DNA from: an uncultured Gemmatimonadales bacterium
GTDB taxonomy: Bacteria; Gemmatimonadota; Gemmatimonadetes; Gemmatimonadales; Gemmatimonadaceae
Reading direction: 5' to 3'
Assembly (NCBI GenBank): GCA_963850905.1
Contig: CAWKMU010000003.1
Location: forward strand, 1,952,001-2,016,000
DNA length: 64,000 nt
Positions within the stretch are counted from its first letter, which is position 1; every line of letters begins with the position of its first letter. Both the position numbers and the translations under genes were made by a program. This document shows, piece after piece, positions 15,833 to 54,840 of this stretch. The notes beneath the pieces are model-generated. The model was not told where the DNA came from. It saw only the letters and a program-made list of their open reading frames with translations, and searched no databases.

Positions 15833-15848
15833 GGCGGCGAAGCCGCCG

Positions 15849-15930
15849 TGCCCGGGGCGGGGCTCGAACCCGCACGTCTTTCGACAAGGGCTTCTAAGGC
15901 CCTCGCGGCTACCAATTACGCCACCCGGGC
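15849..15930 (-). tRNA. tRNA-Leu (anticodon TAG), CCA not encoded
   Basis: GCCCGGGTGGCGTAATTGGTAGCCGCGAGGGCCTTAGAAGCCCTTGTCGAAAGACGTGCGGGTTCGAGCCCCGCCCCGGGCA folds as a cloverleaf with a long variable arm and TTCGA T-loop. Confidence 0.95.
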
Positions 15931-52076: not shown

Positions 52077-52094
52077 CTCGCCTGCGGCTCGTTA

Positions 52095-52250
52095 TAGAGA
52101 GTAGACGGACAGAAAGTAGAAAGTAGACGAACGACAACAGGGGCGGCCAACCAGGCCGCCCCTGTTCCATTCTGGGACGGGATGCCCCAGGCTGGGTGGC
52201 ACTGAGCACCGCTCGCGTCTACTTTCTACTTTCAGAAGTTCTACTTTCTC
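52095..52250. repeat. Heptamer-arm hairpin element (TAGAAAG)n...(CTTTCTA)n on the 5' side of tRNA-Lys
   Basis: tagagagtagacggacagaaagtagaaagtagacg ... cgtctactttctactttcagaagttctactttctc; internal stem aacaggggcggcc...ggccgcccctgtt. Confidence 0.85.
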
Positions 52251-52270
52251 GGGCGCCGAAAGGCGCCCGC

Positions 52271-52575
52271 GGGCCGGTAGCTCAACAGGTAGAGCAGCGG
52301 ACTTCGAGAAAAATTGGAGCACCGCGCTGGAAACGGCGCGCGTGAATGCGCTCAACGTCGGCGAACGGTGTGAGATCCCAACGCCGAGCCAAGCCGGGAA
52401 GCCGTGTGCGAATCCCGGAAGGTGTAGAGACTCGACGGGCGCCACCTGACCGCGAGAGGCGCAGGTGAAGACAGAGTCCGGACCACGAACGCGCGGAGCT
52501 CGTTGTCTGCGCGGCGGCGAAAGCCGAAGTGGTGTGTTAATCCGCAGGTCGTGGGTTCGAGTCCCACCCGGCCTA
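52271..52575 (+). tRNA. tRNA-Lys (anticodon UUU) interrupted by a group I intron; exons 52271-52304 and 52537-52575; CCA not encoded
   Basis: Joined exons GGGCCGGTAGCTCAACAGGTAGAGCAGCGGACTT|TTAATCCGCAGGTCGTGGGTTCGAGTCCCACCCGGCCTA form a cloverleaf with anticodon arm GCGGA-CTTTTAA-TCCGC and discriminator A. Confidence 0.92.
52305..52536 (+). ncRNA. Group I self-splicing intron (IC3-like), 232 nt, no homing endonuclease ORF
   Basis: P1 CUU^CGA/UUGGAG with U-G wobble at the splice site; P2 cgcgctg-GAAA-cggcgcg; P3 gcgctc/gggcgc; P4 tcggcg/cgccga; R element GAAGGTGTAGAGACTCGACGGG; P8 cacctg/caggtg; S element AAGACAGAGTCC; P7 gactc/gagtc; terminal G at 52536. Confidence 0.9.
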
Positions 52576-52592
52576 TGCGCGCTTCGCGCGCA

Positions 52593-52747
52593 TAGGGAAG
52601 AGCGATTCAGAAAGGAGAAAGGAGATACCGAGCATAGGCGGCCTGGACGGTGTGTGCGCCACGAGGCCGCGTTCCTCGGTCTCCTTTCTCCTTTCTCCTC
52701 TCGGTCCGTCAGCGTTCTCCCTCTGTCCTTGCTCCTCTCTCCTTTCC
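52593..52747. repeat. Heptamer-arm hairpin element (GAGAAAG)n...(CTCCTTT)n on the 3' side of tRNA-Lys
   Basis: cagaaaggagaaaggagataccgag ... ctcggtctcctttctcctttctcctctc ... ctcctctctcctttcc. Confidence 0.8.
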
Positions 52748-53084
52748 GCCGGCGCCCGAGCACGCGCTGCGTGCGCTCCCGTTCTCACGCGAATGTGCGG
52801 CAGCGTTCATTGCGGGAGCGCCATTATACGCGGACGTAGCAAACGATGCGCGCCAGGGACAGCGTGTCCGAAAATGTCGGGCGCGCGCGAGAATGTTTGC
52901 AAAATCTCTCTGGCTTTTTTTTCCAGGAGTCGCTACGTTGCGCGCCGTCGGAGCGGCGGGGTGGGCGGCGGTGTGGCGCTGGGCGGTGTGTATGCTCCGA
53001 CGGCAAGGACCGGAGCGGCCTACACTAAGGTGGGCCGTAGAGTGGATCACACCGGCATGATCGCTCGCCCCTCCTGAGGGGCTG

Positions 53085-53177
53085 CGACAAAGGCAAACCC
53101 GGCGAAAGCCGGCGACGCAAAGCTACGAGGCTTCGCCCCGCATCAAAGCCAGCGGGGCATGCCAGTCGAGCCGCCGA
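53085..53177 (+). promoter_or_regulatory. c-di-GMP-I (GEMM) riboswitch
   Basis: AAAGGCAAAC-CCGGC-GAAA-GCCGG-CGACGCAAAGCTACGAGGC...ATGCCAGTCGAGCCGCC matches the GEMM-I layout (GGCAAAC, GNRA-capped P2, GACGCAAAG, P3). It ends about 10 nt before the AGGAGG RBS of the downstream gene. Confidence 0.82.
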
Positions 53178-53196
53178 ACAGACAACAGGAGGTTGA

Positions 53197-54840
53197 ATGT
53201 CGCGGACGATTCGTCGCCCCGCGCGGGTGTGGGCATGCGTGCCCCCGACCTGTGCCGCTGTTGTGGCTTGCCTAGCGGCCGCCTGCTCGGACCCTGCTGG
53301 ACCTCATCTGCAATCGCCCGCGTCGCCGGCCACGACGCCCCGCACCTTCGTAGTCGCCCCCGAAGGCCGCATCGACGCGCCGGGCACCAGCACCGCGCCG
53401 ATCTCCCTCGGCCGCGCGATCGCGATGGCGCCCACCGGCTCGACGATCCAGCTCGCGGCCGGCACGTACTCGACGCCAGGACTCACGATCGATCGGTCGC
53501 TCACGCTGCAGGCGGCGCCAGGCGCGACCGTGCAGCTCGAGGGCAGCACGCTGATCCCCGCCGATCAGTGGGAGCCTGCCGCACACGGATGGCGCACACC
53601 CTGGACGGCTGCCGCCCTCGTGCCGGCCGCCACTCCATCCATGCGAACGTCGGCGCGGGCGGCCGTCTCGCAGCAACGACTGCTCGCCGACGGGCGCGTG
53701 CTCACGCCCGCGAGCTCGGCCGCCGCCGTGGGTGTCACCAGCTTCTACGTCGACACCACCGACAAATGGCTCTACGTCGGACAGGACCCGGCGCTCCACC
53801 CGGTGCAAACCGGATCGGCTGACATCGGCCTGCTCGTGAAGGCGCCGAACGTCACACTCATCGGCGTCAGCGTCCACGCGTTCGCCTCGATCGGACTCAG
53901 AGTCTCCAGTGAACACACCACGATCTCTGGCGGCACCTACTCGTACAACGGCCTCATTGGGCTCGACGTCAACGGGGCGAGCTACCTCACTGTCCAGAAC
54001 GCGAGGATGACCTACAATGGCCAGGTGGGGGTCGAGGCCAGCCACTCGAGCAACATCACCATCCTGGACAATGACATCAGCAACAACAACACCGGCAACT
54101 ATAGCGTCTCGCAGGAAGCTGCCGGGTTGAAGGGCACGAACATCAGCAACATCACGGTGCGCGGAAACTGGGTGGCGGACAACGCCTCGAACGCGATCTG
54201 GTTCGACGAAAACTCGACCGGCGTCGTCGTGGCGGCCAATCAGGTGCTGCGCAACAAGTGCTACGCCATCTATTTCGAGCTGAACACCGGGCCGCTCATC
54301 GTCGGCAACCTGGTCTACGACAACGTTCAAGCCGGCATCGGCGTGCACTTCACGACGTACGCGGGAATCTACAACAACACGTTGGTGAACAACGGCACGA
54401 ATCTCGACGTCAGCGCATCGTACGATCGGTTACCGTACGACACGTACCAGGCGACCATTGTCAACAACATCTTCTGGAACGCGGGGTCGCTCCTGGTCAA
54501 CCTCTATCGCTACAACGGGTGCAACAGCTGGGTGTACAAGCAGGTCGATTACAATGCGTATTATCGTAGCAACGGGAGCTCGCCCAAGTACGTCGTGAAC
54601 TGGTGCAACGCGTGGTATAGCAACGTCTCGGCGTTCCACAGCGGTACCGGCTACGAAGCCCACGGGATCGAGTATGACAATGGGAGTGATCCCTACTTCG
54701 TGAACGCCGCCGCCGGGGATTACCACCTCCGCTCGGGGAGCCCGGCTTATCATCGCGGCGTGGGTCTTCCCAGCGCCGCCGCCGCTGCACTCGGCGTTAC
54801 GCCCGGGGTGACCGTGTCGATGGGCGCGTTGCAGAACTGA
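53197..54840 (+). CDS. Secreted right-handed parallel beta-helix repeat lipoprotein (pectin-lyase-like fold)
   Basis: Lipobox LAAAC; Asn-rich PbH-like repeats (NITILDNDISNN, NITVRGNWVADN, AIWFDENS, IYNNTLVNN, IVNNIFWN); DPYFVNAAAGDYHLRSGSPA; AGGAGG RBS. Confidence 0.8.
   Translation: MSRTIRRPARVWACVPPTCAAVVACLAAACSDPAGPHLQSPASPATTPRTFVVAPEGRIDAPGTSTAPISLGRAIAMAPTGSTIQLAAGTYSTPGLTIDRSLTLQAAPGATVQLEGSTLIPADQWEPAAHGWRTPWTAAALVPAATPSMRTSARAAVSQQRLLADGRVLTPASSAAAVGVTSFYVDTTDKWLYVGQDPALHPVQTGSADIGLLVKAPNVTLIGVSVHAFASIGLRVSSEHTTISGGTYSYNGLIGLDVNGASYLTVQNARMTYNGQVGVEASHSSNITILDNDISNNNTGNYSVSQEAAGLKGTNISNITVRGNWVADNASNAIWFDENSTGVVVAANQVLRNKCYAIYFELNTGPLIVGNLVYDNVQAGIGVHFTTYAGIYNNTLVNNGTNLDVSASYDRLPYDTYQATIVNNIFWNAGSLLVNLYRYNGCNSWVYKQVDYNAYYRSNGSSPKYVVNWCNAWYSNVSAFHSGTGYEAHGIEYDNGSDPYFVNAAAGDYHLRSGSPAYHRGVGLPSAAAAALGVTPGVTVSMGALQN

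What the first reader, a model, noticed from the sequence alone, without database searches (positions are those of the whole stretch)
52271..52575. Group I self-splicing intron in tRNA-Lys(UUU), inserted after wobble U34
Seen: two tRNA halves are separated by 232 nt carrying the group I core (P1 with U-G wobble at the 5' splice site, P3, P4, P7 gactc/gagtc, R and S elements, terminal G). Only splicing after U34 gives both a 7-nt anticodon loop (CUUUUAA) and an intron ending in G. Established: the classic bacterial tRNA group I introns are in tRNA-Leu(UAA), fMet/Ile(CAU) and Arg(CCU), and the R/S elements here resemble those IC3 introns. The familiar tRNA-Lys(UUU) intron in plastids is group II. 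Inference: this is an uncommon host tRNA and lineage, standard annotation could miss the gene, and AAA decoding may depend on splicing. I cannot confirm novelty without a search.
Basis: partly seen in the sequence, partly recalled or inferred. Interest (0 to 1): 0.85.

Follow-up and report, generated by a model that had tools for sequence, protein, structure and literature searches.

The report
Self-splicing-type intron splitting lysine tRNA
The only gene found in this soil bacterium for the lysine tRNA that reads AAA codons is interrupted in its anticodon by a small ribozyme-type (group I) intron of the family long known in bacterial tRNA genes; it is real, but it is one more example of a known kind.

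Summary
Confirmed. Window 52271-52575 (+) is a 73-nt tRNA-Lys(UUU) gene split after U34 by a 232-nt ORF-less group I intron (52305-52536; "Lys.3Ug" in Williams' 2020 nomenclature).

- **Detection:** default ARAGORN and Rfam at its gathering score miss it. RF00028 gives 24.9 bits against a cut-off of 50.
- **Structure:** P1-P9 is supported on 34 related introns. 93.4% of cells pair, 36 of 58 pairs change on both sides, and the splice-site U·G is kept in 34 of 34.
- **Exons:** they match intronless tRNA-Lys(UUU) genes of congeners at a syntenic locus.
- **Copy number:** no intronless Lys(UUU) gene was found in G000 or, among the best matches, in four other carriers of the genus. AAA is about 23% of Lys codons.
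- **Relatives:** a sister intron sits in tRNA-Gln(CUG) of the same genome, and the two form one clade. In a 301-genome sample of the family, 16 genomes carry a Lys(UUU) intron. Others carry one in Gln, Asn or Leu tRNAs.
- **Other lineages:** Lys hosts also occur in a Sphingomonas and a Pyrinomonadaceae genome.

Williams (bioRxiv 2020) already raised the known tRNA settings from 4 to 21; I could not see the table that lists them. This scan has noted tRNA-Lys(UUU) group I introns before on other DNA, and the Gln intron in this genome.

Verdict: a new member of a known kind. Splicing itself is untested.

The parts
52271..52304 (+). 5' exon of tRNA-Lys(UUU), tRNA positions 1-34 (acceptor and D arms, anticodon stem 5' strand, C32 U33 U34)
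   Evidence: ARAGORN -i. Matches intronless tRNA-Lys(UUU) 5' halves of congeners at 91-97%; alignment.
52305..52536 (+). Group I intron, 232 nt, IC3-like, with no Pfam-supported ORF; ends in omegaG at 52536
   Evidence: RF00028 at 24.9 bits, E = 2.8e-4. Only U-1/omegaG split. Covariation across 34 introns. The antisense ORF 52092-52763 has no Pfam hit.
52537..52575 (+). 3' exon of tRNA-Lys(UUU), positions 35-73 (U35 U36 A37 A38, anticodon stem 3' strand, variable loop, T arm, acceptor, A73; no encoded CCA)
   Evidence: ARAGORN. 92-95% identical to 3' halves of congeners' intronless genes.
52302..52319 (+). P1: exon C32-U33-U34 plus intron CGA (52302-52307) paired with the guide UUGGAG (52314-52319); splice-site wobble U34(52304)·G(52317)
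   Evidence: mapping. In one search helix 1, the U·G pair is kept in 34 of 34 and 5 of 6 pairs change on both sides.
52323..52340 (+). P2 (7 bp) closed by a GAAA tetraloop (52330-52333)
   Evidence: all 7 pairs change on both sides, 88.7% of cells paired.
52348..52353 (+). P3 5' strand; pairs with 52437-52442
   Evidence: helix 3: 98.8% paired, 4 of 5 pairs change on both sides.
52358..52387 (+). P4 (52358-52363 / 52382-52387) enclosing a short P5 (52367-52368 / 52377-52378)
   Evidence: helices 4 and 5: 99.5% and 100% paired. P5 switches among GG/CC, GC/GC and CC/GG.
52388..52423 (+). P6 (52388-52389 / 52422-52423) and P6a (52394-52398 / 52414-52418)
   Evidence: helices 6 and 7.
52429..52433 (+). 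P7 5' strand (GACUC); pairs with 52474-52478 (GAGUC) and forms a pseudoknot with P3
   Evidence: helix 8: 100% paired. The fifth pair occurs as GC 13, CG 10, AU 8, UA 3.
52437..52442 (+). P3 3' strand
52443..52467 (+). P8 (52443-52448 / 52462-52467)
   Evidence: helix 9: 81.4% paired, 3 pairs change on both sides.
52474..52478 (+). P7 3' strand
52482..52533 (+). P9 domain: P9 (52482-52486 / 52529-52533), P9a (52490-52494 / 52509-52513) and P9b (52515-52518 / 52523-52526) with a GAAA tetraloop at 52519-52522
   Evidence: helices 10-13: 93-98% paired.

Best explanation
The locus is the gene for tRNA-Lys(UUU), interrupted between U34 and U35 by a 232-nt, ORF-less group I intron of the IC3 type that bacteria carry in tRNA anticodon loops.

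Proposed mechanism:
1. The precursor is transcribed as one RNA.
2. The intron folds into the P1-P9 core.
3. Exon C32-U33-U34 pairs with the internal guide GAG, giving the U34·G wobble.
4. An external guanosine attacks after U34.
5. The terminal G (52536) then occupies the G site, and U34 is joined to U35. This restores the loop CUUUUAA.

The anticodon-stem pairing of the two exons probably does the work of a strong P10.

Because no other tRNA-Lys(UUU) gene was found, reading of AAA codons should depend on this splicing.

What is shown: the anatomy, the conservation of the structure, the exact insertion site, and the apparently single-copy status.

What is inferred: self-splicing, its dependence on guanosine and Mg2+, and the dependence of AAA decoding on it.
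For: - **Split tRNA.** A 73-nt cloverleaf carries a 232-nt insert.
- **Splice rule.** Among splits that keep a tRNA, the only one with U at -1 and G at the intron end gives Lys(UUU).
- **Rfam.** RF00028 hit at E = 2.8e-4. Relatives score 34.9-44.4 bits.
- **Covariation.** On 34 introns and 58 pairs: 93.4% of cells pair, 36 pairs change on both sides, 0 of 500 shuffles reach the observed values, and slid controls give 32-42%. The splice-site U·G is kept in 34 of 34.
- **Homology to the classical intron.** The core aligns with tRNA-Leu(UAA) introns.
- **Insertion site.** Intronless tRNA-Lys(UUU) genes of congeners match query positions 3-34 and 267-305 contiguously and carry the same loop. They lie beside the same upstream gene in 3 of the 4 intronless loci compared.
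- **Orthologues.** The orthologous introns of G002 and G003 are called Lys(UUU) unambiguously. P1 shows a compensatory A-U to U-A change in G003.
- **Only copy found.** None of the 47 intronless tRNAs in G000 is Lys(UUU). None of the 20 best loci in G001-G005 holds one; this includes G003 (96% complete) and G004 (93%).
- **AAA is in use.** It makes up 4378 of 18784 Lys codons and occurs in 1753 of 2245 long ORFs, in a crude gene set.
Against: - No experiment or clean RNA read shows the ligated product.
- RF00028 stays below its curated cut-off (24.9 against 50 bits).
- The thermodynamic fold is only modestly better than shuffles (z = -1.73, 15 of 200 shuffles as good).
- P10 is weak (my inspection).
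- G000 is only 82% complete, and its rpoB is not one open frame. A second tRNA gene, or sequence errors, cannot be excluded for this assembly alone.
- The alignment was anchored on splice sites that I chose, so U at -1 is there by construction. Its G partner is not.
Confidence: 0.9

Rival explanations
1. The host is tRNA-Asn(GUU). The intron would be cut after C32 and before UGUUAA, as ARAGORN placed it, or after U33 in some relatives.
For: ARAGORN's own call for G000, G004 and G001 is Asn(gtt). The intron would still end in G. Williams 2020 reports one tRNA intron class with C at -1. In G001, G263 and G034 a U-1/omegaG split that gives Asn is also possible.
Against: - The -1 base would be C in G000.
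- In G002 and G003 no Asn reading passed the U-1/omegaG filter.
- The exons are 91-97% identical to intronless Lys(UUU) genes of congeners.
- They are unlike the genome's own tRNA-Asn(GUU), which has a U1-A72 end.
- The guide pairs with C32-U33-U34, with U34·G kept in all 34 introns.
Confidence: 0.02
2. It is a dead or non-splicing copy. The intron no longer excises, the tRNA is a pseudogene, and the working tRNA-Lys(UUU) lies in unassembled sequence.
For: G000 is 82% complete. No splicing evidence was obtained. In another genome (L081) a related intron sits next to what looks like a broken 5' half.
Against: - Five genomes of the genus keep both exons intact and the intron core with compensatory changes.
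- No intronless copy was found among the best matches in G003 (96% complete) or G004 (93%).
- The tRNA inventory of G000 lacks only this anticodon.
Confidence: 0.05
3. It is a genuine group I intron, but in the cell it needs a host protein or chaperone, or its splicing is used as a control point for AAA (and CAG) decoding rather than being neutral.
For: It interrupts the only copy found of a needed tRNA, and a sister intron interrupts tRNA-Gln(CUG) in the same genome. Metatranscriptome contigs of close relatives still contain exon plus intron. Protein helpers are known for other group I introns (Hausner 2014, passages read).
Against: There is no evidence here for any partner or any regulation. 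Small IC3 tRNA introns such as that of Azoarcus self-splice efficiently in vitro (recalled). The RNA contigs may be DNA carry-over, and they come from relatives.
Confidence: 0.1

Closest known systems
[quoted passage not shown]
   Same: Same insertion point in the anticodon loop (after U34, loop position 3). Same U-1/omegaG rule, the same core sequence blocks, and GAAA loops on P2 and P9b. It aligns directly with Leu(UAA) introns from the same bacterial family and from other phyla.
   Different: The host tRNA is Lys(UUU), so the 3' exon starts UUAA rather than AAAA, and the guide sequence is adapted to it. In the tree, the family's Lys, Gln and Asn introns group apart from the Leu, Arg and Thr introns, with weak support (70/90).
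The enlarged set of tRNA group I intron settings in Williams, bioRxiv 2020 (10.1101/2020.01.27.920355): 4 classical plus 17 new, 5292 introns
   Same: Same kind of element, and the same mapping logic (eight loop positions, U-1/omegaG score, ARAGORN with introns allowed). The preprint makes the same observation that Rfam's model scores these introns below threshold (whole text read).
   Different: The list of the 17 new settings is in Table 1 and Fig. 3, which are images and are not held. I could not see whether Lys at position 3 is among them. The preprint used 2017 GenBank genomes.
Azoarcus tRNA-Ile(CAU) and alphaproteobacterial tRNA-Arg(CCU) introns (Reinhold-Hurek and Shub 1992; Ile2.5Ug, Arg.5Ug)
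   Same: Small ORF-less IC3 introns in the anticodon loop. The shared block GAAGGUGUAGAGACU was found by exact match in Arg(CCU) and Ile/Met(CAU) hosts. P1 has only three exon base pairs.
   Different: Those introns sit after position 36 (loop position 5). This one sits after position 34. The P9 domain here has an extra arm (P9a).
tRNA-Lys introns in other lineages seen here: Sphingomonas cremea Lys(UUU) (L028) and a Pyrinomonadaceae MAG Lys(CUU) (L059)
   Same: The host is a lysine tRNA, the core is IC3-like, and the introns are ORF-less and about 220 nt long.
   Different: They are inserted one base further 3' (after U35, '4Ug'). Their introns group with the Leu and Thr introns, not with this one (94/91 for the pair).
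Plastid trnK(UUU) intron
   Same: Same host tRNA species.
   Different: It is unrelated in structure and mechanism.

Membership tests
Group I intron (Rfam RF00028) | Match to the family covariance model at the curated gathering score | tested here: not met
   24.9 bits against a cut-off of 50, E = 2.8e-4 on 551 nt; nothing at gathering on the window. Relatives score 34.9-44.4 bits. Williams 2020 states that none of the 12 Rfam seed sequences was bacterial and used 18-20 bit thresholds.
Group I intron | P1 helix in which the last exon base is U, in a U·G wobble with the internal guide | tested here: met
   U34(52304)·G(52317). U·G is kept in 34 of 34 aligned introns, and the flanking P1 pairs covary. 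The U is there by my choice of splice site; the G is not.
Group I intron | Terminal guanosine (omegaG) before the 3' splice site | tested here: met
   G at 52536. It is the only split with U-1 and omegaG that leaves a valid tRNA.
Group I intron | Conserved core P3-P4-P6 and P7-P8 with the P3/P7 pseudoknot, supported by covariation | tested here: met
   Paired cells: P3 98.8%, P4 99.5%, P5 100%, P6 98.5%, P7 100%, P8 81.4%. 36 of 58 pairs change on both sides, and 0 of 500 shuffles reach the observed values.
Group I intron | Guanosine-dependent self-splicing with exon ligation | not testable with these tools
   Needs in vitro transcription with GTP and Mg2+, or tRNA sequencing. The RNA contigs laid do not show it.
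Subgroup IC3 (bacterial tRNA introns) | Location in a tRNA anticodon loop, small size, no P5abc extension, and sequence homology to Leu(UAA), Arg(CCU) and Ile(CAU) introns | tested here: met
   Located in the anticodon loop. 232 nt with a 2-bp P5. Aligns with Leu, Arg and Thr introns. BLAST finds the Leu(UAA) intron of G036 at E = 1.6e-9. The formal subgroup definition is recalled, not tested feature by feature.
tRNA-Lys(UUU) | After intron removal: a cloverleaf with a 7-nt loop and anticodon UUU | tested here: met
   ARAGORN on the computed spliced product calls tRNA-Lys(ttt), loop CTTTTAA.
tRNA-Lys(UUU) | Orthology with uninterrupted tRNA-Lys(UUU) genes | tested here: met
   The halves are 91-97% identical to intronless genes in G007-G009, contiguous at 34|267. 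The same upstream gene lies beside them in G007, G008 and G009. Alignment.
tRNA-Lys(UUU) | Aminoacylation with lysine and decoding of AAA/AAG | not testable with these tools
   U35, U36 and A73 are present in the sequence. Their role as LysRS identity elements is recalled.

The most novel reading that the evidence does not exclude
In this bacterial family (probably Gemmatimonadota), one clade of ORF-less IC3 introns has spread among several tRNA genes: Lys(UUU) at two different loop positions, Gln(CUG) and Asn(GUU). This includes a recent jump between tRNA-Lys(UUU) and tRNA-Gln(CUG) inside one genus, with the guide sequence re-tailored. That would be a natural example of intron transposition to new RNA sites, for instance by reverse splicing, with no homing endonuclease. 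The Lys setting after U34 may also not be among the 21 settings already catalogued.
Probability: 0.3. Interest if true: 0.55.

Novelty: new member of a known kind. Interest (0 to 1): 0.33.

Why it matters
- **Annotation.** Standard tRNA finders and Rfam thresholds miss the gene, so these genomes would appear to lack the tRNA that reads AAA.
- **Biology.** The locus offers a within-genus pair of alleles, with and without the intron, at one syntenic site. It also offers two sister introns in different tRNAs of one genome. Together these make a tidy natural system for asking how endonuclease-free group I introns are gained, lost and moved between tRNA genes.
- **Limit.** It does not reveal a new mechanism.

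Tried and rejected
**RNA evidence for splicing.** Four metatranscriptome runs were laid as contigs at 90% likeness or more.
- One contig in X17 (record 16, 169 nt, depth 3.5) joins 52304 directly to 52537, which is exactly the predicted junction. However, only 27 letters lie on the shorter side, it differs at 4 places, and only 56 of its 169 letters lay on the stretch. The tool warns about such joints. It is most likely an intronless tRNA-Lys from another organism, so I do not count it as splicing evidence.
- Contigs 95-96% alike cover exon plus intron: X15 record 1 at 52269-52565, X16 at 52286-52495, X17 at 52257-52483, X18 at 52256-52481. They show that relatives' sequence is present in RNA libraries, but DNA carry-over is not excluded. 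No DNA run was laid for comparison.

**Thermodynamic folding.** z = -1.73, too weak to use as an argument.

**A protein-coding reading.** The antisense ORF 52092-52763 (223 aa) has no Pfam hit. I treat it as a chance ORF in 66% G+C DNA.

**Promoter scan.** No sigma-70-like site was found, so the scan says nothing about how the gene is transcribed.

**Literature.**
- Searches found no paper describing a group I intron in a bacterial tRNA-Lys(UUU).
- The only apparent claim is Mohanta 2017 (PMC5733544, passages read). [quoted passage not shown]
- The Hausner 2014 review (PMC3984707, term search of the text) has no occurrence of Lys, Gln or Asn.

**Taxonomy.** It rests only on a 542-aa RpoB fragment: 69% identical to a MAG titled Gemmatimonadales, against 55% to a Pyrinomonadaceae and 53% to a Sphingomonas genome. 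The phylum is therefore probable, not proven.

**Left open.**
- L164 and L165 (family f2 hits): no split tRNA was found in either, and L164 gave no Rfam hit. L165 was not searched against Rfam.
- G005 (66% complete): neither a split nor an intact Lys(UUU) was found.
- G006: only 3'-half matches. One is a truncated copy; the other was not examined.

Full report
**Observation.**
The sequence at 52271-52575 holds two tRNA halves, 34 and 39 nt long, separated by 232 nt. ARAGORN in default mode reports only one tRNA in the whole window, a tRNA-Leu at 15848-15930. With introns allowed it finds a 73-nt cloverleaf at exactly 52271-52575 with a 232-nt insert in the anticodon loop.

Rfam at gathering thresholds reports only that tRNA-Leu and a c-di-GMP riboswitch. 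With permissive thresholds on 551 nt, RF00028 (group I intron) matches 52295-52495 at 24.9 bits, E = 2.8e-4, below its cut-off of 50. So the object is there, and standard settings miss it.

**Which tRNA, and where is the splice site?**
ARAGORN placed the intron after C32 and called the product Asn(GUU). I enumerated all splits that leave a valid tRNA and required U before the 5' splice site and G as the last intron base. Only one remains for G000: CUU/c...g/UUAA, which is tRNA-Lys(UUU) with the intron at 52305-52536.

Independent support:
- The orthologous genes of G002 and G003 are called Lys(UUU) without ambiguity.
- Intronless tRNA-Lys(UUU) genes of congeners match query positions 3-34 and 267-305 back to back. 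They have the same loop.
- These intronless genes lie beside the same upstream gene in G007, G008 and G009 (74-77% identity over about 770-850 nt).
- The genome has its own, quite different tRNA-Asn(GUU).

The C32 split also does, but it has C at -1.

**Is it a group I intron?**
I aligned 34 introns with 6 nt of 5' exon (A2). They comprised 27 from the window's bacterial family and 7 from named genomes, in Lys, Gln, Asn, Leu, Arg and Thr tRNAs. I wrote the P1-P9 structure onto the G000 row and counted pairs.
- 93.4% of 1945 cells form standard pairs, against 74.2% in shuffles.
- 36 of 58 pairs change on both sides.
- 0 of 500 shuffles reach any of the five observed measures.
- Sliding the 3' partners by 1-3 columns drops pairing to 32-42%.
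- P3, P4, P5 and P7 are 99-100% paired.
- The fifth pair of P7 occurs as GC, CG, AU and UA.
- The splice-site U·G is present in 34 of 34.

P2 and P9b end in GAAA tetraloops. The core aligns with classical tRNA-Leu(UAA) introns.

Caveats: the structure was derived from one of the sequences, and the alignment was anchored on splice sites that I chose. The minimum-free-energy fold alone is unremarkable (z = -1.73). No ORF with Pfam support lies in or across the intron.

**Is it the only tRNA-Lys(UUU)?**
G000 is 4.49 Mb in 6 contigs, 66% G+C and 82% complete. It has 47 intronless tRNA genes. They include Lys(CUU), but none is Lys(UUU).

I searched G001-G005 with an intronless congener tRNA. The only matches of 91% or more were the split halves. 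The 20 best loci contained Arg, Met, Lys(CUU), Asn and other tRNAs, but no intact Lys(UUU). This includes G003 (96% complete) and G004 (93%).

In a crude set of 2245 long ORFs, AAA is 4378 of 18784 Lys codons and occurs in 1753 ORFs. That AAA decoding depends on splicing is an inference from established decoding rules, under which tRNA-Lys(CUU) reads AAG only (recalled).

**Relatives and distribution.**
- **Within the genus** (10 genomes including G000). The split gene is present in G000-G004, at 81-98% identity. Intact intronless genes are present in G007, G008 and G009. G006 gave only 3'-half matches. G005 gave nothing.
- **Second intron in G000.** A second, 79%-identical intron lies at C3:520738-521032 in a tRNA with a U1-A72 end. 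Its best split is CUCU/u...g/GGA, tRNA-Gln(CUG). This scan had already noted it (e1-7820548).
- **Within the family** (301-genome sample, BLAST with the intron alone, at most two candidates scored per genome). 20 genomes in 10 of 77 genera have a match. By host:

| Host and loop position | Genomes |
|---|---|
| Lys(UUU), position 3 | 14 |
| Lys(UUU), position 4 | 2 |
| Gln(CUG), position 4 | 6 |
| Asn(GUU), position 4 | 1 |
| Leu(UAA), position 3 | 2 |

  Some genomes carry two.
- **Within the phylum** (401-genome sample). Only 7 genomes match. One of them, G364, is unpublished. G016 is likewise unpublished. Both enter only these tallies.
- **Across bacteria.** Hosts are mostly Leu(UAA), Arg(CCU) and Met/Ile(CAU). 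The scan also turned up Lys(UUU) in Sphingomonas cremea, Lys(CUU) in a Pyrinomonadaceae MAG, Thr(GGU), Arg(UCU) and Asn(GUU).
- **Tree**. The genus's Lys and Gln introns form one clade (99/99). It is separate from the Gln introns of other genera (100/99). This fits a move between the two tRNA genes within the lineage, or gene conversion between the two introns.

The lineage is probably Gemmatimonadota. This rests on an RpoB fragment (69% identical to a MAG titled Gemmatimonadales, against 53-55% to two other phyla) and on that same MAG holding the closest named intron.

**Known or new?**
[quoted passage not shown] The preprint raised the known settings from four (Leu.3Ug, Arg.5Ug, fMet.2Ug, Ile2.5Ug) to 21, and noted that Rfam's model underperforms on them.
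- The table and figure naming the 17 new settings are images, and bioRxiv supplements are closed. I therefore cannot say whether Lys at position 3 is listed.
- The 2014 review by Hausner et al. (term search of the text) has no occurrence of Lys, Gln or Asn.
- My searches found no paper on a bacterial tRNA-Lys(UUU) group I intron.
- Earlier notes of this scan report such introns on other DNA, in phages, Poribacteria, Omnitrophota and others. Those are unchecked AI notes, but they agree with what I found myself.
- The tRNAscan-SE 2.0 preprint states that the program was not designed to detect these introns (passage read).

**RNA data.**
Contigs from four soil or rhizosphere metatranscriptomes, 95-96% alike, cover exon plus intron. 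That is compatible with unspliced precursors of close relatives or with DNA carry-over. The single contig that joins 52304 to 52537 is best read as an intronless gene of another organism. Splicing therefore remains untested.

**Verdict.**
The finding is a real, correctly read group I intron in the only tRNA-Lys(UUU) gene found in this genome. It is a new member of a known and already much enlarged class. The points of moderate added interest are the with/without-intron polymorphism at one locus within a genus, and the sister intron in tRNA-Gln(CUG).

Noticed in passing
G000:C3:520738-521032 (outside the window, about 1.43 Mb upstream): A second intron-split tRNA in the same genome. It has a U1-A72 end and its best split is CUCU/u..g/GGA, i.e. 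tRNA-Gln(CUG). The intron is 79% identical to the Lys intron and forms one clade with it (99/99). This scan had already noted it (e1-7820548).
   Followed up: partly
window 52096-52129 / 52216-52249 and 52609-52625 / 52680-52696: The tRNA gene is bracketed by long inverted repeats whose arms are purine-rich and pyrimidine-rich short tandem units (34-nt arms at 82%, 17-nt arms at 100%). A similar GGGGTCA-repeat hairpin lies upstream of the Gln intron-tRNA. Their function is unknown. They may be a genome-wide repeat class or terminators.
   Followed up: no
window 53083-53179 (+): A c-di-GMP-I-GGC riboswitch (RF03167, 62 bits, above its gathering score) lies just upstream of a 547-aa beta-helix/NosD-like protein gene at 53197-54840.
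   Followed up: no
L163 (G000:C3:204340-208602): rpoB does not read as one open frame: the match lies in a 780-aa open frame, and a stop was met. The assembly may therefore carry indel errors.
   Followed up: no
L081:300-620 (MAG titled uncultured Gemmatimonadales): A related intron is followed by an intact tRNA-Gln 3' half. The sequence before it does not form the matching 5' half, so this may be a broken or rearranged gene.
   Followed up: no
L011:1480-1560 (G006:C108): Only the 3' part (about 45 nt) of tRNA-Lys(UUU) is present. This resembles the partial duplicate that a genomic island leaves when it integrates in a tRNA gene.
   Followed up: no
G000:C3:1716143-1716231 (-): ARAGORN calls an 89-nt 'tRNA-Gln(ctg)' here. 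The length is odd for a tRNA-Gln, and the call may be spurious, given that the intron-split gene also encodes Gln(CUG).
   Followed up: no
window 52256-52257 (5' ends of RNA contigs): Metatranscriptome contigs from two studies (X17, X18) both begin 14-15 nt upstream of the tRNA 5' end. One X15 contig spans just 52269-52565. This is a weak hint of transcript ends in close relatives. No DNA run was laid for comparison.
   Followed up: no
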